Source: Saccostrea cucullata
Lineage: Eukaryota
Reading direction: 5' to 3'
Length of the DNA: 64,000 nt
NCBI RefSeq assembly: GCF_032062105.1
Contig: NW_026928915.1
Coordinates: 62,001-126,000 of the forward strand
Made by a program: the position numbers and the translations under genes. Under the pieces are notes generated by a model. It searched no databases, was not told the DNA's origin, and saw only the letters and a program-made list of their open reading frames with translations. Shown piece after piece: positions 8,801-54,500 of this stretch (position 1 is its first letter; each line of letters opens with the position of its first letter).

Positions 8801-11800
8801 TAAAGGTGACTATTCCCTTCAAGGGTGTAGCGCCGAGTGTGCGTGAATATTGTTATCCGCGGGAAAGTTAGTAAAAAGTTATTAATAGAAAGAAACTAGT
8901 CAAACCGGAAATGGTCAAATACGTCACACCTAACAAACATAAACACTCACACGTGGACATTCACACATGACAACACAAACGTAAACACATAGAAATAATT
9001 AAAACATTGAAACTGAAACATTTAATTACTTACACTGGTTACATATTCCCCCCTTTTATTAAATGGCTCCTGACATTCTCTGAAATTAAATATCAGGCAA
9101 ATGTTTTAATTCAAAGTGCTGAATCAACTCAATATCTATGTACAACAAATTCAACAATCCAGCAAATAAGCATAAAATAAAATCAAACCAAATTAAATAA
9201 TCAAACACCATGTGAATCCAAAAATGCATCACCAAAACACAACTCACTGACACTGAACACCAAACCTGCCAAAAACCTTTGACACATAAGACCTCGACAT
9301 TACTGTCCAAGAATCATATCTACTGAACCAACCGATATCAAATGAATATGTTCAAATCATCTCAGATTAAACATTAAATTTCATCCATTTATATCAAATG
9401 ATGATGGGGGCTCAATAATGTTACACTGTAAAATTACAGTATCAATTGTTTATCTTTAAATAAACAACATGTATCAGTTAAATTCATTCATAGATTCATT
9501 TATTTAGAAAAATATTCACATAAGTCATAAAAAACAAAAATAAAACACTATCTTCACTTAAGAAGTCCTTGAATTCACTGAATTCACTAATCACTTAACT
9601 CCGACTGTCTATTATTTTTTTTTTTTTCTAACTTGTCCATTCACCATATCTGTCTGGCTGCTTCTTAATTCTCGTTGACCGTCGTACGGGCATAGCTTCC
9701 TGTGACACATCAGGTACACTCTCGGAAGTTGGACTTGGCTCATTTCCACTATGGCTTGAATCGTTAACCCCTGGGGACTGAAATGATAAAGAATAATTAC
9801 CATTATTGAAATCATTGTCACTTAGATTAATACCCGAATAACTATGACCTTCATCAACTACTGATGAAACATCTTGAATAGATGAGGGCTGTACAGGTTT
9901 TTCTCCCATAGATCTGGTCCTCACGACTCTTCTCACAGTCCAATCTTCTGTGTCACTCTCTGTTTCTGATGAATCTGATGAATCTTTTGTCGCTGCTGGC
10001 ACCTGTCTATCTCCACTTTCTTTCTTTGTCTGTTTCCTTCTACTGTTCTGTTGTTTATACTGTATTTCCTCCCCCTCTTGTAAACCAGAATAAGGAAGAA
10101 GCATATTCCTATGCAGAGTCCTGGTTCTGCCTGTTTTACCCTCAGCTTTCACTCTAAACACAGGAACATCGGGATTTGGCATTTCCTTAACAGTATAAAT
10201 AGTTTCCTCCCACTTGTCAGCCAACTTGTTCTTACCCTTTAGACCAACATTCCTGACCAAAACTTTATCCCCAGGCTCTAACTTTGTCTCTCTTACTTTC
10301 ATATCATACCTCTGTTTGTTCTTTAAACCTGACTTTCTTGCCTCTTGAGATGCTATTGCATAAGCTGATTTCATTCTCTGCTGCAGCTTTTCCACATATC
10401 CCCTTGGATTAACATCGCCTTCATTTCCTGGGTCTAGTCCGAGGAAAGAATCAATTGGAAGTCTTGGACTCCATCCAAACATCAAGTAATGTGGGGAAAA
10501 ACCTGTTGCATCACTCTTTGTAGCGTTATATGCCTGAACCAAGGGAGCAACATGTTGTTTCCAGTCAGTCTTCTGTTTGGGATCCAGGGTTCCGAGCATC
10601 TTCAAAAGTGTCTGGTTAAACCTTTCTGCCGATCCATTGCCCATAGGATGGTATGGTGTCGTGCGGGTTTTCTGAATTCCTAGCAGCTTACAGAGCTCCT
10701 TTATAACTTTAGACTCAAAATTCCTGCCCTGATCACTATGTAGCTTTTCCGGAAATCCATAATGTAAAAAGTAATTCTCATATAAGGCCTATGCTACACT
10801 CGACGGTATAACCTGTGTGTCTATGTGTGTATTGAATTCATATGGACCTATTCTAAATCAGCTGTGAGTGTTGTGTTGTGTTTTGAACTGGTCGACCGTT
10901 GAAAAGGTGTGTTCGTATCATTGTGATTATTCACAGGCGGATCCCGAGAGGTGAATCCGAGAACTTCCGGAACCGTGACGTCACAGATGCGCGCAGCGAA
11001 CCAATGACCGACCAAAATGGAGTCTATGAACAACGTGTTGTGAATTAGTCTGCGGAGCAAAGGTACTGTAAACAATTGTGCAAACCAATGGTCATTTTCT
11101 TGTGTTATTCTATGTGCATGTATGTCATATTTGTTTGTGCAAGTGATTGTCTTCGTCTTATGTATTGTCTGTACTGAATACTGAGGACTAGTGTAAAAAG
11201 GGAATTCCCAAGGTCTATTTTTGTTTCTATTTATAGTAAACAAATCTGTTTGTAAACTTTTGGCTGTAGTAGTGTATTTTTTTTCTTTTTCAGGTTTATA
11301 ATTGTTTGTTTTTGCAAATTATTTTTGTATTTATTTATATTTTTTTCATTGTAAGTTCAATATCTATACTTTATTTATTTATTTATTTCTAGGTTAAGCT
11401 GAAATTTTATTTAGGTGTTGGTAAATTTAGGTAGCAGAAAGCCCAGTTCACTTTCTAACCAGCATGCAACCATTGCACTAATCAATCTAATTTCTTTCAG
11501 TCCAGTTGATCAGTAGACAGACCTACGGAGCAGAGAGTTATTGTGTGTGTGTCTGTATGTATTGTGAGTGTGTTAGTGATTTTGAATTTTAGGAATTTCA
11601 TCAGATGTCTGAGATGATTATGTACAGAATTATTTAAACTGGGTATCATAAGTTGAATTAATCCATCTTTAAAGTATTCAACAGAAAACATATTACCAGG
11701 TAACTTACTAAAGAGTTGAATAAGAGATATTACATCAGTTGCTGTGGTTGTATGTTGAAGGTGTATTGATCTGTTGTTGTGTTGAGGTGCTCAGTTAAAC

Positions 11801-14800
11801 AGTTGTATACTCAGTTGTTGAGTTGTAGTTGTGAATATTTATTTTATATCAGTTCAGTGTACAGTAGTGTTCAGTTGGTGTAAGTATTTGTTGTGAAGTG
11901 ACAGAAGTTGTTAGTAGAAATGTCTGATCAAGATAAACAAAAGGGTAGTGAGGATGTGTCCTCAGCAGAGGAAAAGAAACTTGATTTTGCTGGTGTTGCA
12001 ACCAGTACCCCCAAAACCACAAAAGATGGTAAAGATGGTAAAACCACAAAAGATGGTAACCCTTCAAAAACCACAAAAGATGGTAAAACCACAAAAGATG
12101 GTGACCCTATTAAAACATCAAAAGTCAGTGACCCTATAAAATCAGAGGTATCTGTACCTTCAGAACAGAGTGCAAAACCAAAGGTATCTGTACCTGATTA
12201 CAATGCACCGGCTTTGCATCAGGGACAGAAACACAATCCCTTTGCAAAGTTGGCATGTAATTTTGGTGACACTAGTAATAGCAGTAGCAAACTTCAAAAT
12301 ACCTTTTATGACAAGGATGGTAATAGCATTAATCAGGTGTATGAATTTAATACAAACATCCCAAGAATCCCACAATTCTCAGGGGATGACCCTCCTCAAA
12401 AGGGGGATGTTTCGTACAAAGAATGGAGATTCGAGGTACAGTGCCTGATGCGTGACCCTGATGTTAAATCAAATATTCTGATACAAAGTATTAGACGGTC
12501 ATTAAGGGGTACAGCAAAAACAATGTTGATTCCGTTAGGTGAGAAAGCAGGCGTTAAGCAAATTTTAGATAAACTTGACATTTTGTTTGGTGAAATTTCC
12601 AACAATGGCATGATTATGCAAGAATTTTTCAATGCTTTTCAACTACCGGGTGAGTGTGTTACATCATTTGGTTGTAGATTGGAGACTATGCTACAAAATG
12701 CTATTGATAGTGGTTATCTTGATCGTGCATCTAAGAATGACTTGTTAAGACATAAGTTTTGGACTTCATTAAGTTCAGAGAAGCTTAAGGCTCAAACGAG
12801 ACATAAATATGATGACATCAAGAATTATGACAGGTTGTTGTTAGAGATTAGAAGGGTAGAAAAAGAAATCTTGATAAGTTCTAGCACTTCAGAGAAAAAG
12901 CCTGTTCATCAGCATGGAATGTCAGTATCTGAAGACTTAGAGGAGAAGTTAATGGAGAAGATGAGGAACATGGAGACAAAATTAGAAGGTAAGATAAATG
13001 ACAAGTTCAACCAGATACTAGAGAAATTGGATGGTAGAACCAGTAATGTATCAGGTGGAGCTAATGAAAACAGAGGTAGAGGTGGTTACTACAGAGGACG
13101 TGGAGTTTGGAGAGGCAACTCTAATCAGTATAGAGGTAATTCCAATGACAGAAGGTTGAATGCTGGTCGAGGTCAAGGTCAGAGACGAGGTCAAGGAGGA
13201 AGTACAGGTAATTATAACCCAAACGCCTAGAGGTCTCTGATGAAGGCCGACCGGGGACCAGGATTTCATGTGAAGGCCAGCAATTAAAATGCAAAATGAT
13301 TGGTGAGTCAAATGAGACTATTGTTTTTATGAATGATAATTCTTTTACAGGTCTTGTTGACAGTGGATCAATGGTAACAACATTGTCATTTTCAGGTTAC
13401 AATTCCATGAAAAATCAACCAGAGTTAAAGGATTTATCTAACTTAGGGTTAGAGGTGTCTGTCGCAGATGGTTCTCTATTGAAATACAAGGGATATATAG
13501 AGTGTACTGTAAAAATTCCATTTATGGATGTAGAGTTATTTGTCCCTGTTTTAATTGTACCAGACACTGATTTCAATAGAACATGTTCTGTGATCATTGG
13601 AACTAATGTGTTGAGAATTTGTAGAGATTTGTTGGGTGAAGATTCCAATGAAATGAAAATAGCTCCAAAGGAATGGAGAGTAGCATTAAAGAGTATGAAG
13701 GGTAAGTGTTACCATGTCAAATCAGTGTGTAAGAAACCTATTACGGTACAACCTAATGAATCTACTGTAGTTAAGGGTCGAGTTAAAGGTTTACCGGGTA
13801 ACAACATGACAATGGTTTCTGAAAACTGTGATAATATTGACAGGTTTACAGTTTGTCCAAGGGTAGTTAAGTTTTCTACACCTACTACAAAGTCTACAGT
13901 GCAAATCAAGATTTGTAATATATCTGCTAAACCCATTTCAATTAGGCATGGCACTGTACTTTGCAATCTCCAAGAGGTAAAGGTTGTAGATAATTTTCCT
14001 GCATTAAAACCCAAATCTGAGGTGTGTGACCCTATTGAACTTGGAGTTAAGGTTGACTCAAGTGTACTTACTGAAGATCAGTTCAATACTGTGAGAAATA
14101 TTCTAAAACAGTACAGTCACATATTTTCCACAGGTCCATTAGATCTTGGTAGAACTGATTTAGTCAAACATTCAATTGAATTAGAGGACACAAAACCGTT
14201 TAAACAACCGTATCGCAGAATTCCTCCGGGTATGTATGAGGAAGTCCGTCAACACGTGCGTGAGATGTTAGACGCCGGAGTCATTCGCGAATCTAATAGC
14301 AATTATTCCTCAAACGTGGTACTGTGTCGGAAAACGGACGGATCATTGCGGTTTTGTCTTGACATGAGAATGCTAAACTCAAAAACGCGCAAGGATTGCT
14401 ATATGCTTCCTCGGTTTGATGACGTCATAGATACCCTGTATGGAGCCAAGTTTTTCAGCAAACTCGACCTACGATCAGGCTATTGGCAGGTAGAAATTGA
14501 GGAGAAAGATCGGCACAAAACAGCATTTTCGGTAGGTAATCTAGGTTTCTATGAGTGCAACAGAATGAGCTTTGGATTAACAAATGCTCCTGCAACTTTC
14601 CAAAGATTGATGGAGAAGTGCATGGGAGATATGCATTTGAAAGAATGTTTAATCTTTTTGGATGATGTGCTCATATTTTCAAAAACATTCGAAGAACATT
14701 GTGTTAGACTTAAAAATGTGTTTACAAAATTAGCTCAACATGGATTAAAATTAAAGCCATCAAAATGTGAATTATTCAAAACTTCTGTTACTTATTTGGG

Positions 14801-17800
14801 ACATGTAATTTCAGAAAGTGGTATCCAAACAGACCCAGAGAAATTATCCGCTGTTCGTGATTGGCCGACACCTTCCAACATTAAACAACTCCGCCAATTC
14901 CTAGGATTTGTGGGATACTATAGGCGCTTCATATTTGTAGACCATTTGTAGACCATGTCGGTACTTGGGTTCATTTATTACCTCAAGACACAATCAAGTC
15001 AATGGTAGTTTGACCAATATATTTATTGATGGTAATAATATAAGAAAAACCAGGCACACTATATATGTTGTATCTAGGCCTCTATAATTCACTGGATATG
15101 GAACTGAATGAAAAGGTCGGCGACTTTTCTATATGTACCCGCCTTCTCGCCAATCCGCTCCCCGGGGATTTTCCAATGGATCCTCAGTCTTGTATACCTG
15201 GTTTTTCAATTAACGTGGGCGCCATTTGTAGACCATGTCGGTAATACTTGGGTTCATTATTACTTCAAGACACAATCAAGTCAATGGTAGTTTGACTAGT
15301 ATATTTATTGACGGTAATAATATAAGAAAAACCTGAAATAAAGTCATTTTAATTAATAAACATTTACAAATCCTTACTGACTTTACTTTTAAATTACAAA
15401 TATAATAAGATATAGATAAGTAATAAATATATTTACCAGGCACACTATATAAATCAGCTACTAATATTAAAGGTGACTATTCCCTTCAAGGGTGTAGCGC
15501 CGAGTGTGCGTGAATATTGTTATCCGCGGGAAAGTTAGTAAAAAGTTATTAATAGAAAGAAACTAGTCAAACCGGAAATGGTCAAATACGTCACACCTAA
15601 CAAACATAAACACTCACACGTGGACATTCACACATGACAACACAAACGTAAACACATAGAAATAATTAAAACATTGAAACTGAAACATTTAATTACTTAC
15701 ACTGGTTACATCAATATAGATTATACCAAATATTTTGGCTTAAATGGCCCTTCTAAGATCAAAAATTTACAAAATTATCTGATATTTTGATCCATACTTT
15801 AAATGACAGGTGAAAACAACTTGTCGATCAATGTGTTTCGATAATGACAAAGCACGATGTATATACATACGATGAAATCACCCTCTCACTTTTTAGCGTG
15901 TATTTCATTGGTTTAAAGTGCCAATAAGAAAGATTTCTGCAAGAACTATTCAATTGGAATTATCATTTATACTACTATTATAATACATTGTATCACCTTT
16001 AATTTTGGGAATGAATAGGTGTTATCTTATTCAGCTCGAACAGATGATATCACTTATTCAAATAGGTTATTTTAGTCATCATTTCACCAATTCAAATCAA
16101 ATAGATGATAACACTTATTCGAATAGGTGATACATGTATCATCAATTCAAATACAGGCACGTAGTATCCGGGGGGCCAGGGGGGCCTGCCCCCCCCCCCC
16201 ACTTTTTTCCCTAACATTACCTTTACTATAGAAAATGTCTATTGAAAAGATGGTTGGCCCCCCCACTTTTTACCACAGTATATACAAAGCAAGAAATATA
16301 GGAAAAAATTGGAAGTGAAAGGAAGTTCGACTTGAAAAAAGTTGGCCCCCCCCCCCCCCCCCCCCCCCCCCCACGAAATAGGATTTTCGAGTTTGGGTAA
16401 GTTTCAATTTTCCTTTTTTTTTTTTTTTTACTTGTCAACTTTTTTTAGGTAAAGAAAAAATTTTTTCTCAGGTTGGCCCCCCCACTTTCAAAAACGATGC
16501 TACGTGCCTGAAATAGATGTATCAACAATGCAAACGCTCAAAAGATGAAATCACCAATTTGAATATTTGATGCCAACAATGAAAAGGTGACATCTTCAAT
16601 CCGAATAGGTGATAACACTTAGCGCCAGTAAATAGCAAAACAGCCCCACATAGATATTAACTTTTACAGCAAGGAAGACAACACGATTTTAAAAAAACGT
16701 GGAATTTGATTTCATTTTTTTTTTTACGTTTTCACTCAAATGAGAGAAATCGGGCTTTGAAGGACCTTTACGAGGCACTCAAGGTTCAAATATTAGTAAC
16801 AATAAGGACTCTTCAAACCGTGCTGCCTTGATATGGGACCTTTGACAGAGTGCTTAGCGAAGGCACAGTTGCTCGCTATATTTAGCGAAAAACGAACGGT
16901 GTCAAAGGATTGTCTTTCTGGGATCGAATCGAAGATTGTTCGAACACGTAGCGAGTGCTGTATCAACTTTCTTGTAACCGTGCTGATTAATATCTACTGA
17001 CGAATAAAACAAGAAAATATACTTCATTGATTTATATTAAAACCAAATATCTACTCCCTCGTGCAATCCGAATATTCTAATCAAAAATTGAAATGAAACC
17101 CAAGTACCTTTCACCACACTTAAGATCATGTCTGCCATTTGCCGAGTAAGTCGAGCGTCTGGTCCCTGGTCGAACCACTTCTTCATCTGCGTCCCGGAAC
17201 GCAGTAGCTTTGGTACCGAGTCATGAGAGTGTCCAAGTTTTATGTAGTACTTTCCTGAAAGGAAATTTAAGTCCAAATGCTACATATACGAGTATTTTTT
17301 GTAAATAGACAACAAATTTGTGTTCTTTTTAAAATATTCAAGGTTTTACTAATACCATCAGGATAAAGAATTGGAGGAAGCATGTAGAAGACGACAGGTG
17401 CCCGGGGATCAACAGGATAATCCCGACTCCAGTCATCTCCACCTCGACCGAAATAGAGGACTGAAGGCATGGTGCTATAAAACATTAGACGGTATAAACA
17501 CGTGTAAAACGAAAAGAGCCCGGACAAAAAGTCGGAAGCACTCTCCATGCAATGTCATACCTTATTTTGTTAGCATCCTCTTTGCTGATTTCCAGTTTCG
17601 TGACCGCCAATGGATAAAGCTTTGTATCGGGAGAAACTTCATTTCCTAACAGATCTCTGAAGGCTGTAAACGCACCAGTGGCTACAAGGACTTTCTTAGC
17701 TAGAATTTTTGTCCCAGAGTCGGTCGTCACCTCCATCAGCATACCGGGATTTTCACTATCGGGGACTACACGAGTTATGCTTCGAACCTCCTCTTGTATG

Positions 17801-18913
17801 TGCAGACAACCGTTAGTCTTTGCAATCGTTATTTGGGCTTTTACGAGTCTTCTGGGACTGATGTATCCTGCCGAATGCTTCTCAAACACCACCTCGTCAT
17901 CTTTTGGAATTGACAGAAAAGGAAAGAGAGATCGAGCCTCTGTTCCGCTCAAGACACTTGCGCCTAAATTATCTTTCTCAACAACATATTTTACCGAGGT
18001 AATGTAATTTCCTCCTCGACTTCCAACTGAAAGACAACCAACTTCCTTGGCAATATCGATTCCTGTATAAGATAAAAAAAAAAAACTCCATAAGAACCTA
18101 CTTTTATGTCAAAGTAGACAATCGCAAAGCATAATAATTTGGCCGATAACATGGCCAAACTTTTGCATAGACATATTTTCAGGATTTTTTAAACAAGTTG
18201 ATAAATGACTAGTCAAAAAAGAGACTTGAAATTGGACATTTCTTTCTTACAAGTCGATATATATAATCTGTTGACAAGTAATGACAGATCTTATGCAACC
18301 ATATTATTTAACCTATGAGAAATGCATGTCTGCACTTTTTTTTTTATTAAAAGCTCTTCATGGGGCAATATAATCAGCATTTTTATTGTATTTATGTTCC
18401 ACTGACTCAAAATGTAAATGACTTTATCTGACATTAAGTTTACCGGATTCTCTCTCAATTTCGGCGTATCTAGGTATTGACTTTTGAGCTAGTCTGGCCC
18501 AGACAGGATCAGATGTTGACTGCATGTAAATTCTCCCCTCATCGTAATGTCCACCATATATGTCCCTTGGCGAATCTTCGGAGCGTTTCTGAGAAAGGAA
18601 ATGTGTTTTGTTTTCTTTTTATATTCTGAATTTTGTTTGTGTTCTTCTTGCTTCTTATAGTACATTTGTATTGTGCATTTTTAAAAATTGAATCAGCTGC
18701 GTGATGTTCCAGGCCAAAAGAATTTGAACTTGAATTTCATCTTCTTTATTTAATATAATAATATATGCTAAAAAGGTTCCATAATTGATACCTGCTTGTA
18801 CTCACCCTGTCAGGCTCATCCGGGCCAATCAAGCAGACATTGAGAAACTTAGACGCATGCTTGGCTGCGGCGGATCCAATCAAACCTGCGCCCACAACGC
18901 AAAGATCAAACAT
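5893..18913 (-). CDS. FAD-dependent oxidoreductase, sarcosine oxidase/DAO-like, 6 exons, 425 aa
   Basis: Exons 18913-18806, 18588-18444, 18062-17561, 17474-17356, 17254-17108, 6149-5893 with consistent phases. Rossmann motif DLCVVGAGLIGSAAA, plus GGHYDEGRI, AGYISPRRLV, VLVATGAF, LPPILYPDGKYYIKLGH and AGNGYAAKSSDEIG. Confidence 0.9.
7378..7585. mobile_element. MITE, TACTGTA...TACAGTA family (TA-flanked)
   Basis: Imperfect terminal inverted repeats; related copy in the opposite orientation at 46965-47176. Confidence 0.7.
8560..9043 (-). repeat. 3' LTR (484 bp)
   Basis: Direct repeat of 15227-15710; I spotted only one substitution by eye. Adjacent to the PPT. Confidence 0.95.
9044..9060 (-). 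promoter_or_regulatory. Polypurine tract of the Gypsy element
   Basis: Minus strand AATAAAAGGGGGGAATA lies immediately before the TGTAACC start of the 3' LTR. Confidence 0.85.
9628..10790 (-). CDS. Gypsy integrase, N-terminally truncated (rve core second half, GPY/F-type region, C-terminal tail)
   Basis: YGFPEKLHSDQGRNFES...RTTPYHPMGNGSAERFN, TGFSPHYLMFG, KLADKW and RRSTRIKKQPDRY. Homology stops at ~10790 with no HHCC motif or first catalytic Asp. Confidence 0.9.
11920..13230 (+). CDS. gag: Gypsy Gag (PNMA/MOAP-like capsid) with RGG-rich C-terminus
   Basis: PRIPQFSGDD...SYKEWRFEV, LRGTAK and LRHKFWTSL capsid motifs. N-terminal KTTKDG repeats. ATG at 11920. Confidence 0.88.
   Translation: MSDQDKQKGSEDVSSAEEKKLDFAGVATSTPKTTKDGKDGKTTKDGNPSKTTKDGKTTKDGDPIKTSKVSDPIKSEVSVPSEQSAKPKVSVPDYNAPALHQGQKHNPFAKLACNFGDTSNSSSKLQNTFYDKDGNSINQVYEFNTNIPRIPQFSGDDPPQKGDVSYKEWRFEVQCLMRDPDVKSNILIQSIRRSLRGTAKTMLIPLGEKAGVKQILDKLDILFGEISNNGMIMQEFFNAFQLPGECVTSFGCRLETMLQNAIDSGYLDRASKNDLLRHKFWTSLSSEKLKAQTRHKYDDIKNYDRLLLEIRRVEKEILISSSTSEKKPVHQHGMSVSEDLEEKLMEKMRNMETKLEGKINDKFNQILEKLDGRTSNVSGGANENRGRGGYYRGRGVWRGNSNQYRGNSNDRRLNAGRGQGQRRGQGGSTGNYNPNA
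13218..14933 (+). CDS. pol: Gypsy Pol fragment: aspartic protease and reverse transcriptase, truncated before RNase H
   Basis: LVDSGS protease; RT motifs DGSLRFCLDMR, KLDLRSGYWQ, MSFGLTNAPATFQ, IFLDDVLIFS and FLGFVGYYRRFI. The frame is open from 13218 and is -1 relative to gag. Confidence 0.93.
15212..15224 (-). promoter_or_regulatory. Primer binding site (tRNA-Lys-like)
   Basis: Minus strand TGGCGCCCACGTT begins 2 nt after the 5' LTR end and is close to the Lys PBS TGGCGCCCAACGT. Confidence 0.8.
15227..15710 (-). repeat. 5' LTR (484 bp)
   Basis: Near-identical to 8560-9043; followed on the minus strand by the PBS. Confidence 0.95.
16154..16510. mobile_element. G/C-run-rich MITE with 5-bp TSD
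   Basis: TIRs CAGGCACGTAG...CTACGTGCCTG, flanked on both sides by AAATA. A partial related end occurs near 1040-1123. Confidence 0.8.
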
Positions 18914-29430: not shown

Positions 29431-29725
29431 CTAAGAAGTTCTTTTTTAATAAACATAAAAAATTAAAATCTAAACAATGCATCTACCAAAATGTCATGAA
29501 CAATAACAAAGCTTCTGCTTTAAATGTGATGTAATAAAGAATATTGCTCTCAGGTCAAGCATTAAACTGAAGACATAAAAAATTAAAATTTTATTGCTTT
29601 AAATGACTGCAAAAATTACCAAAAATCCATTCTTATGGAAATTATACCATAGTCTTCAAACTTGTTTACATTGTAATAGTTTCTTTTTGTCACTTTAAAG
29701 ACAGGTGTGCTAGATCAGAACAACT

Positions 29726-32700
29726 ATGGAGGCTGAGGAGGAAGACTTTCCAAGAACAATAATATTGGGCAACCCAGAAAAGAACAGCAAAATCAAAGTA
29801 CAGTGGGCAGATGATTCCTTCAGGGTTGGATCAGGCTTTGGGGTACAATCCAACACCAAACTTGTTTCACTTCTGGATAAACAAAGATCATCAATTGAGG
29901 AACCCCCTGTTAAACAGTTCTCTCTTGTTGACAAACAGAATACAGAGGACAAAAACTCAATTGAAAATTCTACAAAGACACATGAATTAGCTACAAATAA
30001 ATACTATGATGACATGTTAAATGTGATACCAAATCAAACTTCAAAATCAGAAAATTTAGAAATGGAACATCCAGCTCAAAATGAGGATGTGAAACCAGTA
30101 ATCCAAAGCATTGAGTGTAGAAATTTAAATGAAAATGACAAACATCTGGAAAGTAAAGCAGAAGGTGATGTATGTAATAGCCTGCAAATTCACAGAACAT
30201 CAAATCAATCTGCAGAGAGAGATGATAGCACAGAAACTTATTCTTCTGATAAAAGTGAAAGCAAACTTACTGAAGGCAAAACCCAATGTTGGGTTTCGAT
30301 TCTTCAGAAACCCAGTAGTACTGTTTTGCCAGGAAACTTATCAACATCTACATCAAATGCAACTTCCAATCCAGAAGCCACTTTAAATGAAAAAGGTGCT
30401 TCATTTATTATGAATAGTGATACCAAAGTTCTGGAAAAGTTAGGCAAAACCAAAGCATGGACATCAATTCTCAAGAAACCCACCAATTCATCTTTGGTAG
30501 CAAACTCACTGACATCTACATCAAATGATACATGTAATCCAGCTGCCACTGTAAATAAAAAAGACCAAACATTACCGGCATTAAGCATTGATGAGAACCT
30601 TGCTTCACTAGTGAGTTTGACGGATGAATGTCACAATAAACTTTTTCCTTTGCAGAAGAAACAAATAGAAGCATGCATTCCAAATACGCCAAAAGTTGAT
30701 TCCTCAGTGAAGTGCATTGTTTCAATGGCCTCTGCAACAGAGAAAAAACTGGCAGAAGAGAAGAAGGTGTATTCTGTTTCTCTGTTGAATCAGACTTCTT
30801 CATTCAACAAAAGCCACTCTGCTTTCCAGGAAAATTTTAAACAAGCGAATGATTCTGCAGAAAAACAAAGTATTTCAAAGCACGGGGCATCCCATAAGAC
30901 ATTAGTTTCTTTATTAAATGGGAAGACATTTCCTATGTCTGTTCCATTGAAGAATGTACAAGAAGGATATAGCATAACTTCTGAAATGCATGTAAAATCT
31001 CCAACAAATGATTTTTATAGCCTTACAAAAAGAAAGTCTGAGCAGATTGACACCTCTTTGGATGAAGCATTTGGGAAAGAATGCAGTCCATCTGAAGCTA
31101 TTAAAAGAAGGAAAACTGACAAACAACATGCCTCAAAATCTGATGACGGAGAGTCTTTCGATGTTTTCATTGATCCAAACTTTGACACTGCGCACGAAAA
31201 TGAAGAAACAAGTTATAATAATGAGGTCAAAAAAGAATTTCATGATTCAGATTTCCATACATTTGATTCTGACACTAGTAGACTAGATACTGAGAATAAT
31301 AGTGGGAGTGAGGCAACAACAAGCTTGTTTATCAAGCAGGAAACCCTTGATCCTGAATATGGTGATGAACCATTGGTTTCTACTGAAAATGTCAACAATC
31401 CAGTATCTACCATTTCAACAATGAATATTCGAATAAAAGAGGAGGCTTCTAGTGAGGATGGACACTTGTTCAATAAAAATGGTTGTGATGCTGAAGATTC
31501 AGAAGACAGAAATATTTCCTTTGTTAAACAGGAAGTGTTTGACCCAGAATATGAAGACATGCCCCCTGATCTGTCAATGAATGCTCCCTCAATGTCACAA
31601 GAATCAACTGACTTTGAAAACGAAGACATACCTCCTGTTTTATCACCTAAAAAGGAAGCAGACGATTCGGAATTTGAAGAGTGGAATGAAGATTGTGAGG
31701 ATTCTCCACCAGTTTTACAGAAAGAAGACAATCTTTCCAAAGAAGATACTACACTGAAAATTCCAAAAAGAATCACCAAAAATAAATTACGCAAGCAAGT
31801 AAGGAGTCGTGATAAAAATTTGATAAATGACAAATTTATGTGTCCCATATGTAAGGCTGTATTTGAGAAGATAGAGGACTTTGATGTTCATAAAGCTTTA
31901 CATTCTGGGCAGCAGATATTGTCTGACAAACAGTGTCCGGAAAAATTTGTCATAAAGCCTTTGACTATCAGGCAGGATGGAAATAGAAAATTCAAATGTG
32001 AATATTGTGGAAAGGCTTTTAATCGCCCATCGAATCTGAAAGAGCACACTCGAATCCACACTGGCATGTACCCTCACAGATGTCAGTTATGTGACAAGGG
32101 GTTCCATACTAGGTCTAGATTTCTGGCTCACATGGCGCGTCATGATGAGATAAAAGAAACAAAAGAGGCACAGGACATAGTTCTTAAATATACAAAGGAT
32201 GACCCAACCAATGAAGAAATGGAGATTCAGGAATTTTCAGATATGAAGTTAAGGAAATATGTGTGCAACATTTGTAATGAAATCTTTGATAAAGTAACAC
32301 TGTACAGAATCCATCGCCTAAAACACAGAGGAGAAATTCCACATACTTGTAATTCTTGTGGTAAAGCTTTCCCATGCAAGTCTGACCTTGTACGACATGA
32401 AGCCACACATTCTGATGAGAGACCCTACAAGTGTCATATCTGCTTCAAGTCCTTCAAAAGACGCAATGCATTGGTAGATCACTTAACAATCCACAAAAGA
32501 GAAGAGAGCAATGAATCTGGAGAAAAAGACTCTGTTGACAGCATCATGAAAACTTTGGAACCCTCCATAGAAAGCATCGTTCAGAGCTTGGAGCCAAATT
32601 CAAGCTCACCAGGGAAAAGTGTCACAGAAACTGAAAAAGAATTTGAAAATTTCAAGGAAATGGAAAGACCCATTTACACAGATGATGGACAAAAAATAAT

Positions 32701-33148
32701 CAACAGTAAATTCTACTGCAAGGAGTGCAAGATTTCATTCAGTGCCAGACGAGAATATTCCATGCACAGGTTTCAGCATAATGGTGGACATCCTCATGTA
32801 TGTGAGGTCTGCAACAAAGTTTATCCATATAAATCCGATTACGATCGCCATGTGGCAACTCATTTGGGGAGGAAACCTTACGTTTGTCACTTGTGCAGCT
32901 GTGAATTCTCCAGGAAACACTACCTCCAAAAACATCTTCTGAAGCACAAAAACACTCGCATCAGTCTGGGTGGGATGTCCAAGCCTGGCAATGACTTTCA
33001 GATAGAAATTGATAATCCAGAAAAATCTGCTAGTGAAGTAAGTGATTGTGAGGATAATGGTGATGTTGATCTAAGAACCACTGCAGGAAAACTGGAGACA
33101 AGTTATGATGAAGATGGTGCTATGTTCTTGTTTGTAACTGATGATTAA
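29726..33148 (+). CDS. C2H2 zinc-finger transcription factor (9 fingers), 1140-aa single coding exon
   Basis: Nine CxxC-x12-HxxxH fingers in the C-terminal ~440 aa with TGEKP-like linkers; long acidic disordered N-terminus. Candidate acceptor at 29699-29700 suggests an upstream non-coding exon. Confidence 0.93.
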   Translation: MEAEEEDFPRTIILGNPEKNSKIKVQWADDSFRVGSGFGVQSNTKLVSLLDKQRSSIEEPPVKQFSLVDKQNTEDKNSIENSTKTHELATNKYYDDMLNVIPNQTSKSENLEMEHPAQNEDVKPVIQSIECRNLNENDKHLESKAEGDVCNSLQIHRTSNQSAERDDSTETYSSDKSESKLTEGKTQCWVSILQKPSSTVLPGNLSTSTSNATSNPEATLNEKGASFIMNSDTKVLEKLGKTKAWTSILKKPTNSSLVANSLTSTSNDTCNPAATVNKKDQTLPALSIDENLASLVSLTDECHNKLFPLQKKQIEACIPNTPKVDSSVKCIVSMASATEKKLAEEKKVYSVSLLNQTSSFNKSHSAFQENFKQANDSAEKQSISKHGASHKTLVSLLNGKTFPMSVPLKNVQEGYSITSEMHVKSPTNDFYSLTKRKSEQIDTSLDEAFGKECSPSEAIKRRKTDKQHASKSDDGESFDVFIDPNFDTAHENEETSYNNEVKKEFHDSDFHTFDSDTSRLDTENNSGSEATTSLFIKQETLDPEYGDEPLVSTENVNNPVSTISTMNIRIKEEASSEDGHLFNKNGCDAEDSEDRNISFVKQEVFDPEYEDMPPDLSMNAPSMSQESTDFENEDIPPVLSPKKEADDSEFEEWNEDCEDSPPVLQKEDNLSKEDTTLKIPKRITKNKLRKQVRSRDKNLINDKFMCPICKAVFEKIEDFDVHKALHSGQQILSDKQCPEKFVIKPLTIRQDGNRKFKCEYCGKAFNRPSNLKEHTRIHTGMYPHRCQLCDKGFHTRSRFLAHMARHDEIKETKEAQDIVLKYTKDDPTNEEMEIQEFSDMKLRKYVCNICNEIFDKVTLYRIHRLKHRGEIPHTCNSCGKAFPCKSDLVRHEATHSDERPYKCHICFKSFKRRNALVDHLTIHKREESNESGEKDSVDSIMKTLEPSIESIVQSLEPNSSSPGKSVTETEKEFENFKEMERPIYTDDGQKIINSKFYCKECKISFSARREYSMHRFQHNGGHPHVCEVCNKVYPYKSDYDRHVATHLGRKPYVCHLCSCEFSRKHYLQKHLLKHKNTRISLGGMSKPGNDFQIEIDNPEKSASEVSDCEDNGDVDLRTTAGKLETSYDEDGAMFLFVTDD

Positions 33149-47487: not shown

Positions 47488-48394
47488 ATTTAAGTCTGAC
47501 AAGCTAGAACTGTTACTCCAGACAGTGTATATGTGTACAATGTGTTCTATACATTATCATGTGTGATATCACATGTAAATATAACATTGTAAATTGTCCA
47601 TTTTGACATTTCAATAAATTAATGTGAACATAAGGAGCTGTTATTTTAATTACTGAGGTTTAAATTATGATGTTTATAAACCTCTTTTAAATATAAATGT
47701 TACAACAAGGTTGCTGAGGAATGTACCATAGTGATTGGTAAAAGCTGAAGATTTTGATGAGAGGAGAAGTTGAGAGCACAAGATTATAACTGAAAAAGAT
47801 AAATACAGTAATAAATATGGAATGATGCAAAAATTGCCTCCATAAATTATTCCTATCAAATTTGAAAAGGACTATAGTCAGCTGGTCATATGTCAGCTGA
47901 TGTCCTCAATCTTGAAATTCACCATCTTAGTTATCTACTATTCAATTTAAATATCATCAATTAAACATCTTTAAGAGTTGAATCTCGCATATTTAATTGC
48001 AAATGTCAAAGAGATGTTTCATCATGTTTTACATGTAAAATTCATAAATTCAATCACAATTCATCCTTGCATTTGATATTGTAATACATGTACATGTATA
48101 TTACCTTATTATATACTATAATATACATGTATACAATACACTACATAGATATTGGTAATATCAAGTACAGTTTATCTTCAGTCCATGAAAAAACATTATT
48201 AAATGATTTAGATGACACACGAGAAATCTGACCTTAAAGCCCACATGAAGCTTGCATTCATCACGTTCAAACTGCTCACTTTTATAACACAATGTTAGAG
48301 ATGTCCAATTTATTTCCTAGGATTGGTCAAATTTAGGAAATGGCAAAATAATTTTAGTAAAAATTTGTAATGAATACTAATAACTCTCAGATTA

Positions 48395-49827
48395 TCATGA
48401 CCGTCCATTTGAGTTGACAACAGTTTGTTCTTTGATCTTCCTTCTCTTACAACTTAACTGTTCATCCACTTCGTTAATCATTTTTTGAGCGTATTCCTGT
48501 AAGCAAGGAGGTAGTGAGTAAGACTGGCCAATCAGGAAATCAAACGACAGCCACACATTGGACGGTCCACTGAAGCGCTTGCGTTTGTCAATTTGAATAA
48601 GGTCCTCCACATTGATTGACAGCTCACCAGGTAGGTAATCGATTTGTACTGGCCAAGTCTCTAGTTTCCGTGCTCCCTCAAAATCCAGAGGGTCATATCC
48701 CAACTCTTTCCTCAATCTGGCATCCTAATCAAACAGAGTGAATATAGGTTATGTTTCAAAAAAATGTACCAAAAAGTCTACCAAAACTTCCTCGATGCTA
48801 TCGATAATTGTATTAAGGCAGTTGTATTGTTTATTTGTCATATATTCCAAAAATCAATGATACATATGAATGTTCCTAATTTTTCTAGACATACTGCATA
48901 ATATCAAAGACGATTTTATGCAAAGCTTTAAGCATGTCTACTTTTAAATGTGTTTTGAAAGTTCTTGAGGTGGATAGCTTACCTGTAAAGCATAACAGAA
49001 CTGTTTTAGAATCTTCTCTACATTGGTCCAGTATTCTGAGTGAAAATATACTTTCTTTAACATGATTTCTTTTGTATTTTTACAGACAGCCAAGAAATTG
49101 CACCATGGAAGTCCTGTGATGGCCAGCTGTCCCTGTATCTGCGCCATATAATGCCGAGGTATACCTAAAATAATTTTTTAAATGAAAATTTAGAAATAAT
49201 GGACTGGTTTGGTTCCTTTAAAGTTATTTTTCCTGTTTTTCTTTACACAGTCCTCAATATTGATAGGATCAGGAGATCTCTTTTAAATCTACCGGTGGTA
49301 ATGTTCAGTACATACTCTATAGGCAGAGATTGCTTTACCTACACTGTGTGTACAAAAATGTACAAAGAAATTTTAGACTTAATAAAGTAGGAAATGTAAT
49401 ACATTGCAAAATTACCTTGCACTGTATTCTCTGTCTTATACATTCTGTAGATAGGAGCCTTAAATTCACACAACCCAATGTCTTCCCCTTGATCATCCAC
49501 AACAACTGCATCTGGGGATGTCCCTATCAGATCTTGTAGTATCCTGTCCCTAGGCACCCAAAAACCTGACTCCCTTGTCTTGTGCCCTGTCAGAAGATGG
49601 TAACATTCCAGGATGATTTCCTCCATGGTAATACCATGCTGTGTATATGATGATTCCGTTACTTCTTCCTCGTCTTCATCATTATCATCTGACATCAAGG
49701 AGAGGAAGAAGTCGTAAGGTTTACCCATCCCAACTCCAAGAGCATCTCCAAACTTTGATGATGTCAGGTAAACTGATTGACGTATGTCAAACCATTCCTT
49801 TGATCTTTGTTTTACTTTGGACTCCAT
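48395..49827 (-). CDS. YqaJ-like viral recombinase / lambda-exonuclease family PD-(D/E)xK nuclease, 3 coding exons, 307 aa
   Basis: Exons 49827-49416, 49164-48983, 48724-48395 in phase. Motifs QRSKEWFDIR...LTSS, HGITME, SGFWV, IGTSPDAVV, CEFKAP, YMAQIQGQLAITG and YW. Confidence 0.88.
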
Positions 49828-50997
49828 AAGTCACTGTTAAAATTCATTTGATTATTATTATTTTTTTAACTTTAATATCAGGTCTAAATCATAATTGGAA
49901 TTAATTTGTAAAAGGATTATTTTATTTACTATTGAAACAAATTTGTCATGCAAAGGACCATCAATGTGATTTATAATCATAATAATTATTAATACGATAC
50001 TGTCGCAATCCCTACGAAACATCAAGAAATAAACAGGTCCAGTACAATCTCTTGATCTAGCTACATGTATATAGCTTGAAAAAAGCGGTCTCGGGAGACG
50101 AGTGAATACAGTTTGTTCAATATCCAAATATCATTTAAAACTTTAATTTAAAAAATCAAACCTTTCGTCTTTCAATTGTATAATTTAGCCATTCTCTAAT
50201 CATGTTTCAAGAAAATTGTTTCGCATGCCAAACTCATCCATGAAAATGGCACAAAATTGACATCGGATATATCTAAGATAAACTAAAAAAGAAATCGCAT
50301 GACGGATTTCATTATCAGATCCGGAAAACCGCTCTTGTTCTGAATCAATATCCTGGTCTTCTTCTTTGCTAGTTTAAGATAGTCTGATCCTTATGTTCAT
50401 TATACAGTATGAACAGTTTTATAAAAGTAATTGATAATCCTTACAAAATTATGTTTGAATTCACAAAATGATATGTATTAAATACCCATTCTTCAAAAAT
50501 ATCAGATCTCAAACATTTATTCAGGAAAATCAATTAGATTCATTAACTATGCATTTTTTGATTAAAAATTGATAAATATATATATATATATATATTTGGT
50601 TAAAAAGCTACGGGTATCCGCGAATTCAGAGAAATTTGCATGTTTTTAATTATACTTATTTGGTATTTGATGTCTGACGTTCTATTTCCTTCTATAATTA
50701 TATAATAAAAAATGTAAAAACCTTGTGCTTTCATTGCAAGATATCACAGATCACTTCTAATTTCATATTCTGCTAATAAGCATTGGTATCTAAGGCTAGA
50801 TTCAAGAAAACCATTTCTCTAAAACTGTAATTAAAAAAAAACTTTTACAGGGCAGAAATGTCCCTTTCTAAGACTTAAAAAAAAAAACCCGAGTCATGGA
50901 AATCGTTGCATGGGAATTTTTCAATTTCAAACTTTATAATGAGACTTCTAAAATCAAAATTTAATTTTAAGAGTTCAGTATCCTTCTTTGCTGAGGA

Positions 50998-51180
50998 TTT
51001 GTTTAACGTCTCTCTCGCGAATTTTTCACTCATACGGAGACGCCACCACTTGGTAGTGGAGAGCTGCAAATACTCGCGGCACTCCGGGCCATTAAGGCTG
51101 ATGGAGCAGTGAGGGATTTTTTTTTCGTGTCAGCATACCTGCGACACGGGATTTCGGGGTTTATACTGTCTCCTCCGTAG
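50998..51180 (-). mobile_element. SINE body and tail, relative of 45050-45341
   Basis: Reverse complement of the gagtgaaaaattc...gagacgttaaac tail and the cccgtgtcgcaggtatgctgacacg body. Confidence 0.75.
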
Positions 51181-51512: not shown

Positions 51513-54500
51513 TTACGCGACATCACAGAAACAAAGTTGCTTTGAACACGGGAAAGTGAATTTAAAGAGCTGTTCATAACTAGGAACATAAAAATACTTT
51601 CTCGTTTCTGTTTCCTCCAAAACATATTTTTCCTCCTCGCCGAGAATGATAGTGATGACGTTCATGTTTTCAAGAGAATGAAGTTTGCTAACGATGTCCA
51701 TCACGTTCTGTTCTTGTTCGTCCACGAACACCACCACCGTTCGCCGCGCGCCACGCCTGCTACCATTCTTGTCGAAGAAGGCGTCGAGTTTCTCAATGAG
51801 GCTGCTGAGTCCGGGGAACGTAATTTTTGATACGCCACTCCATGACGTCACAGGGACCAGACCAGTTTGGGCGGCTTCTGGACAATCGGCTGTAAGACGA
51901 CCAATTCGTATGTCTCCCATTCCAATGGCGATTCTTTTCACGATTGAGGAGATGAATTTGTTGATAATAAGGGTTTTCTGGGCCCCGATTCCAAACATAT
52001 CAAATACAAATACGATGTCCATCATTCCATACTTCGGCAATTAATTGAACAACTGAAAAGAAATGGGAAAAATATTAGTTTGTGGCAACATGACATTTAA
52101 AATATTCCTTTAATGTAAATTAGTGAAAGAAAAGAAATAGAAGAATCGGTAAAAATTAAAAAAAAACTTACCATTTAAAGAAGCATCGTCCTTGGGTAAC
52201 ATTCCACATGTCCTGGTGGCTAGTAGTGTTCTTATGGAATTCAGAGCATCGAAATTTTGGACATGGAAAAGGAAATCTTTGTCTGGGTCGCTGGCAATGG
52301 CACTAAGCTCCACTGTGTCAACTCCTTTTCCGATTCCAACAGCAAAAACATAGATACCAGCATCATGAGCCAGGGCAGCCTCTTTTTGTGTTTTTGCAGT
52401 ATCCATGGACAGGCCGTCCGTCAGAACTATCATGATGTGGGCGACTCCGGGTCTAGCAACGCCCGAGGCGAATCCCACTTTCCTGACGAACTGGATGGCG
52501 TCACCTGTGTTTGTCCCCCTTGCATGATATGGAAGATTTCTGGCCGCTTTTTGAAGTTCAGGGACGGTCAAAATGGAACCGAGAGGGATGTCAACCTTGA
52601 TCTCGTGGCTATATGTGACAACGCCGATTCTAGTGTTGGAGCTAGATATGTCAAAAGCACTGATAAGTTTACTGATGAAAGTCTTCTGTTTTTGGTAATT
52701 ACTGTATCCAATACTCCTAGATGAGTCCATGACAAAGTAAATGTCGGCTGGCTTTCCATTACACTCTGCAAGTACAACGTTAAGCTTGAATTTTGAATGG
52801 TCTTATATTTCCAGAAATCGAACTTCAAAAACTCTGACTATCAAATACCAATACTATTGTAAATACCAAATTTAATACATGCACATGTACTCACCTTTTA
52901 CAAAAGACTGGTCACTCTGATGTCCACCTCTGAATGATAAAGTGGTGGTGGTGGTAGGTTGTGTGGTGGTTGTGGTAGTAGTTGGTGTTGTGGTGGTTGG
53001 TTGTGTGGTGGTATTGGTGGGCTCTGTGGTGGTAGTAGTAGGTTCTGTGGTGGTAGTGGTGGTGGTAGTTTCGGTTGTTGTTGGTTGAGGCGTTGTCGTA
53101 ACTGAAATTTAAGAATAATATACCCGGTAAAACATATTGCAATAAACCAGAATTCATAATCTGTGTAAAAGCAGCCTTCTATATTTTAAAAATATTTTTA
53201 AAAACAAAGATATTTACCTTGACAAGTTTTGACAGCAAACACATTCAGGATGTTCTTTAGAGCGCTGTAGTTGTCTACCGTGAAAACGAACTCTTCGGAT
53301 GGCTTACTGGCAATGCTCTCCAGTTCAGTTTTGTCAGAATTTTTCCCAACTCCTATGGAGAAAAGATTGATCCCCTTTTCACGCGCAGCACGTGCAGCCT
53401 CGACCGTTTTGGCAGAATCTGTAGATCGTCCATCGGTTATGACCACAGCTACTCTAGGAACATTATCTCTTGCACCATTGCTTTTAGTGAACATGACGCT
53501 GGACACGAATTCAATGGCATCTCCGGTGTTAGTTGATCTACCAGGATTGAATTGAATGGTGCTGATAGCTTTCTGTAATTTGGAGGCATCTTCCTGATAC
53601 TTATTCAGATGAAATCGGAGTTTGTAAGTTTCGCCAAATGTGACGACGCCTACTTGTGTGTTATTGGGACCAATTTTAAATTTTTTGACAATATCTTCCA
53701 CAAAAACGAGCTGTCTCTGAAAGTCTGGTGGCCAGATGCTCGCAGAAGAGTCCAACACGAACACAACATCTGCTATACTGTCCTGGCATTCTGATAAACC
53801 TGACAAAGACAAAATATGAAATAAATTTTTACTCCTCAGCAAGTAATGTTCTTAAAAATAAAAGAAAATGAAGCACAAAACCCTTTTACAAATATTTTAC
53901 CAGACGTAAAAGAAAGAAAAGAGAGAAAAATGAATCGTTTAAAAGGAGTACATTTAATCGTTTGAACATTGAGTCCTGTTTTCACACTTTCATTCTTAAG
54001 TTAAGATTAAAATAATCATAATGAAAAGTTGTAAATTTACTTTTACAATTGATTTATGCTTATTTAATGTCTGAAACGTCTTATCTGAAGACCGAATATG
54101 CCTTTTTAAAGAAAATTAAAAGCGTTGACTCTTTTTCCGAAAGTGAACAACCGTTATGTGTGGCTGTCGCGATAAACATACCAATTTCGGGATTTAAAAA
54201 TCTGTTAAAGTCAAGATGTAGGCTTATCTTTAAATCGCTCGATTGATTTTTAAGGATTTTGAACTCTCTGCATGCGAAAGTAATGATTTTGGATTATATT
54301 AGGGGATAACAAAACGAGACAAGTAATCTTGAGTCTTTACACTTACCAACGAGAGGGTTGGATGTCGTCAAAGCTAACCCAAAGGAGGCCTGTAAATTCA
54401 ATAAAAGTTTTGAAAAAAAATTATTACAACATTTAAAAGAAGCAATTTAAAAGAATGATGACAAAATTAAATTGAGAAACAATTGATTAAAATACAGTAC

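What the first reader, a model, noticed from the sequence alone, without database searches (positions are those of the whole stretch)
48395..49827. Intron-containing, stand-alone phage/virus-type YqaJ exonuclease in an animal genome
Seen: all lambda-exonuclease/YqaJ motifs look intact (W...R...TSS phosphate pocket, G...E, SPD, ExK, Y..Q.Q). There are two in-phase spliceosomal introns, an acidic loop (DDNDEDEEE) and basic NLS-like patches (KRKR, KRRK) in a ~110-aa C-terminal extension. I saw no flanking TIRs or partner transposase. Established: this family is typical of phages, large DNA viruses and some DNA transposons, with stand-alone versions in plants. Inference: a domesticated or ancient nuclear 5'-3' exonuclease of unknown function in repair, recombination or defence.
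Basis: partly seen in the sequence, partly recalled or inferred. Interest (0 to 1): 0.7.

Follow-up and report, generated by a model that had tools for sequence, protein, structure and literature searches.

The report
Ancient host lambda-type exonuclease gene
This oyster-type gene is a real, spliced, single-copy host gene under strong purifying selection, with counterparts in many marine invertebrates, a sponge and choanoflagellates; it encodes a phage-lambda-type nuclease predicted to chew DNA from its 5' ends, likely for genome upkeep, and it appears unstudied.

Summary
Confirmed. The minus strand (49827-48395) holds a three-exon, 307-aa gene. Both introns, plus a 5'UTR intron, are spliced in contigs of 4 of 4 runs laid. 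All catalytic and 5'-phosphate-pocket residues of LHK-Exo are present; the AlphaFold model matches LHK-Exo (Z 18.9) and lambda exonuclease (Z 16.8). The gene is single-copy, although the genome holds at least 150 other YqaJ matches; 24 of 30 checked sit beside DDE transposases (ISL2EU-type) and form a separate clade. dN/dS is about 0.08. Counterparts occur in molluscs, an annelid, echinoderms, hemichordates, a sponge and five choanoflagellates. They share a C-terminal module that none of the fetched viral, transposon or other YqaJ proteins matched; the intron-2 site is conserved across many animal counterparts. So it is an ancient host gene, not a recent domestication. Nuclear localisation is unsupported: the basic patches occur in few counterparts. 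Activity and cellular role are inferred, and synteny was not testable. I found no study of the family. This scan reported the same family before, in another oyster genome (e1-8655710).

The parts
50162..50257 (-). Non-coding first exon (5'UTR); upstream end approximate
   Evidence: Joint 49833/50162 in 4 of 4 runs, up to 96 nt on the short side; GT donor
49834..50161 (-). 5'UTR intron, 328 nt, GT..AG; holds a ~55-nt dispersed repeat near 50023-50083
49416..49833 (-). Coding exon 1 (ATG at 49827; residues 1-137): 5'-phosphate pocket W12/R16/T22/S24, G-x-G-x-G-K/R-P loop, acidic loop 47-58, E69, PD (D106), E121-x-K123
49165..49415 (-). Intron 1, 251 nt, phase 1; seen only in oyster-like sequences among the read-through products inspected
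   Evidence: read-through products P0068-P0072 versus uninterrupted P0035-type products
48983..49164 (-). Coding exon 2 (residues 138-198): Y143, Q146, W158-C159, long closing helix of the nuclease core
48725..48982 (-). Intron 2, 258 nt, phase 0; position shared with many other animal counterparts
48395..48724 (-). Coding exon 3 (residues 199-307, stop 48397-48395): family-specific C-terminal module (about 205-270) and terminal helix
48048..48394 (-). 3'UTR as far as RNA contigs reach; AATAAA at 48314, ATTAAA at 47997; converges on the cactin 3' end (about 47627)

Best explanation
This is a spliced, single-copy host gene of an old lambda-exonuclease-like family shared by animals and choanoflagellates, and its protein is predicted to be a Mg2+-dependent 5'-to-3' exonuclease that likely trims DNA ends for genome upkeep. 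Shown: gene structure, splicing, single copy, purifying selection, family range, separation from transposon copies, and an intact active site and fold. Inferred from LHK-Exo and lambda exonuclease: W12/R16/T22/S24 hold the 5'-phosphate of a free DNA end; D106, E121 and K123 (with E69) position two metal ions and cut off 5'-mononucleotides; Y143/Q146 guide the strand; the product is a 3' single-stranded tail that host annealing or recombination proteins would take over, since no phage-type annealase lies beside it. The family's extra C-terminal module (about 205-270) would be the adaptor for host partners or substrate choice (speculative). Odds by step: ancient host gene 0.93; active 5'-phosphate-directed 5'-3' nuclease 0.8; DNA rather than RNA as main substrate 0.8; upkeep or repair rather than defence about 0.6.
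For: Splicing. Single copy: exon-1 protein search 1 match of 18 candidates; starfish counterpart finds only this locus above 56 bits, the next best being 42.7 bits; DNA search finds no second coding copy. Selection: 24 synonymous and 8 nonsynonymous differences over 164/610 sites against one RNA contig of a related form, omega 0.08, Fisher p 4e-11. Range: named hits in bivalves, cephalopods, gastropods, an annelid, echinoderms, hemichordates, a sponge and 5 choanoflagellates, one locus per named species apart from isoforms. Tree: animals 99/98; animals + choanoflagellates + 2 unnamed rows 99/98; transposon set apart 100/99. Intron 2: 33 of 36 family products lacking the C module read V (GTN donor read-through) right after the site, against 0 of 38 full ones; L032 shows GT..AG there directly. 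Residues over 37 aligned members: D106, E121, Q146, T22 37/37; K123, E69 36/37; W12, Y143 34/37; R16 33/37. They align to LHK-Exo W8, R12, T17, E68, K114, Y134, Q137, whose roles are in PMC3239189 (passages). Fold: pLDDT 93.4; LHK-Exo Z 18.9, rmsd 2.7 A over 183 residues; lambda exonuclease Z 16.8, rmsd 3.3 A over 191. Slow change and single copy over this span suit upkeep better than an arms race (inference).
Against: No assay, localisation or phenotype. The NLS-like patches are not conserved. The same fold includes herpes alkaline nucleases, which also cut RNA (PMC3424549 table row), and mimivirus R354, titled as part of a virophage-resistance system (Z 15.3). No named hit came from vertebrates, arthropods, nematodes or cnidarians (many hits are unnamed), so it is probably dispensable, and the genome keeps its own EXO5. 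The gene tree departs from the species tree: the sponge sits among echinoderms (92/81), and Mercenaria pairs with an unnamed row at the base of animals. Choanoflagellates are not one clade. Trees used LG+G4 without a mixture model. The omega value rests on one pair of close sequences.
Confidence: 0.55

Rival explanations
1. Same enzyme, defensive job: it destroys foreign or selfish linear DNA (DNA-virus genomes, excised transposon ends, DNA from ingested microbes) in the cytosol or nucleus.
For: The closest kin are nucleases of phages, large DNA viruses and transposons. Mimivirus R354, a structural neighbour (Z 15.3), is titled as part of a virophage-resistance system. Named holders are aquatic, many of them filter feeders or phagotrophs (my knowledge). 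No conserved NLS. The genome carries many near-identical transposon copies.
Against: Single copy, omega about 0.08 and 40-50% identity between phyla show no expansion or fast change of the kind common in immune genes (inference). No expression data from challenged animals were available.
Confidence: 0.22
2. The main substrate is RNA: a 5'-phosphate-sensing ribonuclease, like the herpes shutoff nucleases or the distant DXO/Rai1 enzymes.
For: EBV alkaline nuclease is a structural neighbour (Z 11.1), and that family has RNase activity (PMC3424549 row 64). Rai1/Dxo1 appear at Z about 5.
Against: Sequence and fold are far closer to DNA-specific LHK-Exo and lambda exonuclease (E 1.5e-13; Z 18.9 and 16.8). 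The family lacks the Viral_alk_exo match that the transposon ORFs have (0 of 5 family proteins against 9 of 9).
Confidence: 0.1
3. A mitochondrial DNA-maintenance nuclease standing in for MGME1/EXO5.
For: Human MGME1 and EXO5 share the fold (Z 8.5-8.8).
Against: An in-frame stop precedes the ATG, and the conserved core starts at residue 2, so there is no N-terminal presequence. The genome has EXO5. MGME1 was not searched.
Confidence: 0.05
4. A recently domesticated or stranded accessory gene of an ISL2EU/KolobokE transposon, or a recent gift from a virus.
For: At least 150 YqaJ matches in this genome; 24 of 30 checked lie beside a DDE transposase. A deep sister relation is not rejected (AU p 0.30).
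Against: Only 23-32% identity to the transposon ORFs. AU tests reject oysters+transposons (p 0.003) and animals+transposons (p 0.012). The best of 62 viral loci is 36% or less, with no C module. The intron site is shared with distant counterparts, and choanoflagellates hold the gene.
Confidence: 0.03

Closest known systems
LHK-Exo of Laribacter hongkongensis (PDB 3syy/3sz4/3sz5) and phage lambda exonuclease (1avq, 3slp, 3sm4); Pfam YqaJ PF09588
   Same: Fold over residues about 2-209 (Z 18.9 and 16.8); counterparts of all LHK-Exo residues named in the passages read (W8, R12, T17, E68, K114, Y134, Q137); PD-(D/E)xK centre
   Different: 19-22% identity; spliced eukaryotic host gene; no neighbouring annealase; about 100 extra C-terminal residues with a family-specific module; often an acidic loop at 47-58; oligomer state and activity unknown
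YqaJ accessory ORF of ISL2EU (Harbinger-like/PHIS) transposons; lambda-exonuclease-like nuclease of KolobokE
   Same: Same Pfam domain, abundant in the same genome (PMC4482050, PMC9179366, PMC9587614 passages)
   Different: No transposase or terminal repeats; single copy; separate clade; lacks the long N-terminal part, the Viral_alk_exo match and the PHD finger seen in transposon ORFs. KolobokE nucleases were not identified separately in my sample.
Kinetoplastid YqaJ-domain proteins (Trypanosoma, Leishmania, Perkinsela)
   Same: Cellular eukaryotic YqaJ proteins; the nearest named cellular relatives in both trees (SH-aLRT 96 in the quick tree; 85/90 and unresolved in the careful tree; names)
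   Different: Mostly 500-880 aa with other C-terminal parts; the fetched ones do not match the C module; orthology not shown
NCLDV YqaJ family (NCVOG1192), incl. mimivirus R354
   Same: Fold (Z 15.3); profile hit E 2.8e-8
   Different: 17% identity; viral; PMC3493329 (passage) reads these as acquisitions from phages with uncertain role
Human EXO5 and MGME1
   Same: PD-(D/E)xK 5' nucleases with a related fold (Z 8.5-8.8)
   Different: About 10% identity; separate Pfam families; this genome has its own EXO5

Membership tests
YqaJ / lambda-exonuclease family (PF09588) | Pfam profile match above the curated cut-off | tested here: met
   70.9 bits against cut-off 22, positions 1-149 of 150 (P0001); exon 1 alone 45.5 bits
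YqaJ / lambda-exonuclease family (PF09588) | PD-(D/E)xK catalytic centre with helper Glu, Tyr and Gln | tested here: met
   D106, E121, K123, E69, Y143, Q146 aligned to LHK-Exo; 34-37 of 37 conserved
YqaJ / lambda-exonuclease family (PF09588) | 5'-phosphate pocket (Trp, Arg, Thr/Ser) | tested here: met
   W12 34/37, R16 33/37, T22 37/37, S24 35/37; LHK W8/R12/T17
YqaJ / lambda-exonuclease family (PF09588) | Lambda-exonuclease fold | tested here: met
   Z 18.9, rmsd 2.7 A, 183 aligned to 3syy; top of 48,161 chains; predicted model of P0001
YqaJ / lambda-exonuclease family (PF09588) | Ring-shaped trimer | not testable with these tools
   Needs sedimentation, SEC-MALS or a structure
YqaJ / lambda-exonuclease family (PF09588) | Processive Mg2+-dependent 5'-3' digestion of linear dsDNA | not testable with these tools
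   Needs a bench assay
Phage Exo-annealase (Red alpha/beta type) system | Adjacent single-strand annealing protein gene | tested here: not met
   Neighbours are cactin and VWA-domain exons; no unexplained long ORF near the gene
ISL2EU transposon accessory exonuclease | Paired DDE transposase ORF | tested here: not met
   0 hits in the window with six own-genome transposases; 24 of 30 other YqaJ loci have one
ISL2EU transposon accessory exonuclease | Terminal inverted repeats and dispersed near-identical copies | tested here: not met
   No bounding repeat pair among the 25 longest of 164; one copy
ISL2EU transposon accessory exonuclease | Nested in the transposon nuclease clade | tested here: not met
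   Separate clades; AU p 0.003 and 0.012; deep sisterhood not rejected, p 0.30
KolobokE nuclease | Nuclease downstream of a Kolobok transposase, TTAA target duplication | tested here: inconclusive
   No Kolobok transposase query was run; the protein has its own start and no fused domain
Orthologous host gene across animals | Conserved synteny (cactin neighbour) | not testable with these tools
   No other animal genomes can be searched; two short metagenome loci (L032, L033; 3.6 and 1.3 kb) show neither cactin nor transposase
Orthologous host gene across animals | Shared intron position and shared derived module | tested here: met
   Intron 2: 33 of 36 against 0 of 38, direct in L032. The C-module profile hits only family members among 348 proteins and 146 loci

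The most novel reading that the evidence does not exclude
Animals inherited from their single-celled ancestors a phage-Red-type resection exonuclease that defines an unrecognised DNA-end-processing or anti-DNA-virus pathway. It was kept in molluscs, annelids, echinoderms, hemichordates and sponges, and lost from the lineages of all standard model animals. Its private C-terminal module couples it to a host annealing or sensing partner in place of Red beta.
Probability: 0.3. Interest if true: 0.75.

Novelty: new variant of a known kind. Interest (0 to 1): 0.5.

Why it matters
In the three animal-genome papers I read in passages, YqaJ domains are counted as transposon or endogenous-virus cargo. 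This gene shows that one such domain is a conserved host gene older than animals, hidden among hundreds of mobile look-alikes and apparently missing from model species, which would explain why it went unstudied. It offers a small (307 aa), well-predicted nuclease for direct assay. If it resects DNA ends or clears viral DNA, it adds an enzyme to the DNA-repair or innate-defence kit of oysters and other marine invertebrates, and possibly a eukaryote-adapted lambda-exonuclease reagent. The enzyme class itself is well known and eukaryotic members are on record, so the surprise is moderate.

Tried and rejected
Three alternative splice models (296-300 aa) were rejected: RNA joints and P0001 fit only the 307-aa model. 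Homotrimer prediction gave no verdict (score 0.00, alignment not used), which says nothing either way. The first fold from 10 sequences had an unreliable N-terminus (pLDDT 78.9) and was replaced by the 37-sequence model. The C-terminal module was not folded alone, so its fold is untested; the wide search barely covered residues 228-267. The ESM Atlas did not hold P0001 or P0205; with P0003 it gave only generic viral YqaJ clusters. Viral scans: 62 loci at 36% identity or less for the family profile; 1 weak 46-residue hit for P0183; none for P0172, so these two unnamed outliers stay unplaced. The metagenome scan gave only 2 family loci of 47, too short for synteny. The careful 77-row tree did not finish (quick tree used); a 48-row careful tree did. 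Rows were a hand-picked subset of the 281 core sequences, plus three named kinetoplastid proteins; itself dropped sequences with cores under 150 or over 290 aa. A first regular-expression count of intron read-through failed and was redone on an alignment (82 proteins, 8 without the column left out). Expression level and tissue could not be read from contigs. The absence of named vertebrate, arthropod, nematode and cnidarian hits is weak evidence only. Literature: ten searches (one search listed 40 of 122 papers with 'YqaJ') showed no study of this family; subscription journals are mostly not covered and no supplements were read. PMC3141983 was not held. Earlier-findings look-ups by sequence and by place were empty.

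Full report
1. Observation. The minus strand from 49827 to 48395 holds three coding exons (49827-49416, 49164-48983, 48724-48395) that splice through GT..AG introns of 251 and 258 nt into a 307-aa frame. Contigs from 4 of 4 public runs laid (4 studies; one recorded as RNA, three guessed RNA; about 90-97% identical to the window in the gene, so a related form) skip exactly these introns. They also skip a 328-nt intron in the 5'UTR. An in-frame TGA two codons above the ATG shows that the N-terminus is complete. A stored protein, P0001, has the same length and differs at 4 residues; it stood in for the window's protein in alignments and folds. Pfam YqaJ matches over 149 of 150 positions. The gene lies tail to tail with cactin and beside VWA-domain exons.

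2. Copy number and transposons. Exon 1 finds one match in the 1.17-Gb genome. A starfish counterpart finds only this locus at high score, and a DNA search finds no second coding copy. The Pfam family, however, has at least 150 matches (150 of 502 candidates scored). The 30 best fall into groups of 95-99.9% identical dispersed copies. Of these 30, 24 carry a DDE transposase within 3.4 kb; the five partner ORFs scanned are all DDE_Tnp_4, four with HTH_Tnp_4 above the cut-off. This is the layout described for ISL2EU elements (PMC4482050 and PMC9179366, passages). These ORFs are 23-32% identical to the protein in question. None of six such transposases hits the window, and no terminal repeats bound the gene.

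3. Family. Searches return a sharply bounded set at about 35-80% identity. Named members are bivalves (Crassostrea, Pinctada, scallops, Mercenaria, Mytilus, Mactra, unionids), octopods, gastropods, the annelid Lamellibrachia, sea stars and a brittle star, two hemichordates, the sponge Corticium, and five choanoflagellates (Codosiga, two Salpingoeca, Hartaetosiga, Choanoeca). Phylum labels are from my own knowledge. Each named species gives one locus apart from isoforms. In a library of 1.84 billion representatives only 31 score below 1e-30. No named vertebrate, arthropod, nematode or cnidarian member appeared, but many hits are unnamed, so loss is likely rather than shown. Two characters tie the family together. 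First, a C-terminal module (about residues 205-270), whose profile hits only family members among 348 proteins and 146 loci, and no viral, transposon or kinetoplastid sequence held (31 members built the profile). Second, the intron-2 site: 33 of 36 products that lack the module read Val, the translation of a GT donor, immediately after the site, against 0 of 38 full-length products. Locus L032 shows the GT..AG intron there directly. Most of these read-through products are unnamed, but they fall across the animal part of the tree. Intron 1 looks oyster-specific.

4. Tree. In a 48-row IQ-TREE tree (LG+G4, 190 columns) animals form one group (99/98); animals, choanoflagellates and two unnamed rows form one group (99/98); the six transposon nucleases form another (100/99). 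AU tests reject oysters+transposons (p 0.003) and animals+transposons (p 0.012), but not a deep sister relation of the whole family to the transposon set (p 0.30). Kinetoplastid YqaJ proteins are the nearest named cellular kin, with weak support. Against a clean vertical story: the sponge sits among echinoderms, Mercenaria sits at the base of animals, and choanoflagellates are not one clade. With 190 columns this may be noise. Viral contigs hold nothing closer than 36%.

5. Selection. One RNA contig covering codons 1-258 differs at 34 sites, 32 of them listed. By codon context (classified by hand) 24 are synonymous and 8 nonsynonymous, over 164 and 610 sites. That gives omega 0.08, or 0.10 if both unlisted sites are nonsynonymous, with Fisher p below 1e-9 either way. 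This is one close pair only.

6. Protein. The profile alignment to LHK-Exo (E 1.5e-13) pairs W12, R16, T22, E69, K123, Y143 and Q146 with LHK W8, R12, T17, E68, K114, Y134 and Q137; D106 and E121 pair with its PD and ExK acids (numbering counted by me). PMC3239189 (abstract and passages) shows LHK-Exo to be a trimeric, processive, Mg2+-dependent 5'-3' dsDNA exonuclease in which R12 confers 5'-phosphate preference, and E68, K114, Y134 and Q137 mutants lose activity. PMC11611040 (passages) gives the matching lambda mechanism. These residues are kept in 33-37 of 37 aligned members. The model from 37 sequences (pLDDT 93.4) ranks LHK-Exo first (Z 18.9, rmsd 2.7 A, 183 residues) and lambda exonuclease second (Z 16.8) among 48,161 chains. 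The acidic loop is net acidic (4 or more) in 20 of 37 members and variable; NLS-like patches occur in 3 and 7 of 37. There is no presequence, and the genome has its own EXO5.

7. How it likely works. It is predicted to bind a free 5'-phosphorylated DNA end, remove 5'-mononucleotides by two-metal catalysis and leave a 3' single-stranded tail. With no annealase beside it, host proteins would take the tail, perhaps through the family's C-terminal module (speculative). I favour a genome-upkeep role (overall 0.55) over defence against foreign linear DNA (0.22), RNA decay (0.10), mitochondrial work (0.05) or recent mobile origin (0.03). The preference rests only on slow, single-copy evolution. Activity, oligomer state, location and role are all untested, as is synteny.

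8. Known and new. The domain family is known from phages, large DNA viruses (PMC3493329, passages), ISL2EU and KolobokE transposons and is listed for eukaryotes (PMC3424549, table row). Databases label the animal members 'uncharacterized' or 'YqaJ domain-containing'. Two bivalve genome papers treat YqaJ genes as transposon or viral cargo (PMC10225492, PMC7826175, one passage each). Ten literature searches showed no study of this host family; supplements were not read and might list it. An unreviewed note of this scan reached the same reading for another oyster genome (e1-8655710). I saw it after recording the same reading and after most of the tests above, and it is not independent support. 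Verdict: a real, ancient, apparently unstudied host variant of a well-known enzyme class; interest 0.5.

Noticed in passing
window 46965-47176: MITE-like element in a cactin intron: 37-nt inverted ends, and very many contigs with loose ends in all four runs.
   Followed up: no
window 45257-45325 and 50999-51071: Two inverted copies (88%) of a dispersed repeat that is high-copy in the runs laid; they bracket this gene and the last cactin exons, probably by chance.
   Followed up: partly
window 9631-14948: LTR-retrotransposon-like pieces: PNMA/gag-like ORF 11902-13227(+) with 27-nt repeats, reverse transcriptase 13218-14948(+), and an integrase ORF 9631-10788 on the opposite strand.
   Followed up: no
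window 29714-33145 (+): Single 1144-aa open frame with C2H2 zinc fingers.
   Followed up: no
window 51516-53851 (-): Three VWA-domain exons with a Thr-rich linker.
   Followed up: no
window 17488-18108 (-): Exon with a DAO (FAD oxidoreductase) match.
   Followed up: no
L002-L031: Several ISL2EU-type transposon families with 95-99.9% identical copies and open ORFs, so likely recently active; the L002 and L006 nucleases carry a C-terminal PHD finger.
   Followed up: partly
P0205, P0322-P0346: A conserved YqaJ-domain protein across kinetoplastids (Trypanosoma, Leishmania, Perkinsela and others); my one search showed no paper on it.
   Followed up: partly
P0172, P0173, P0183 cluster: Unnamed, divergent proteins that group with the animal-choanoflagellate family (99/98) but do not match its C module; host unknown, no clear viral source.
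   Followed up: partly
G000 C3170, C15144, C5489: EXO5 matches on three contigs, two with identical scores, suggesting haplotype duplicates or paralogues in this assembly.
   Followed up: no
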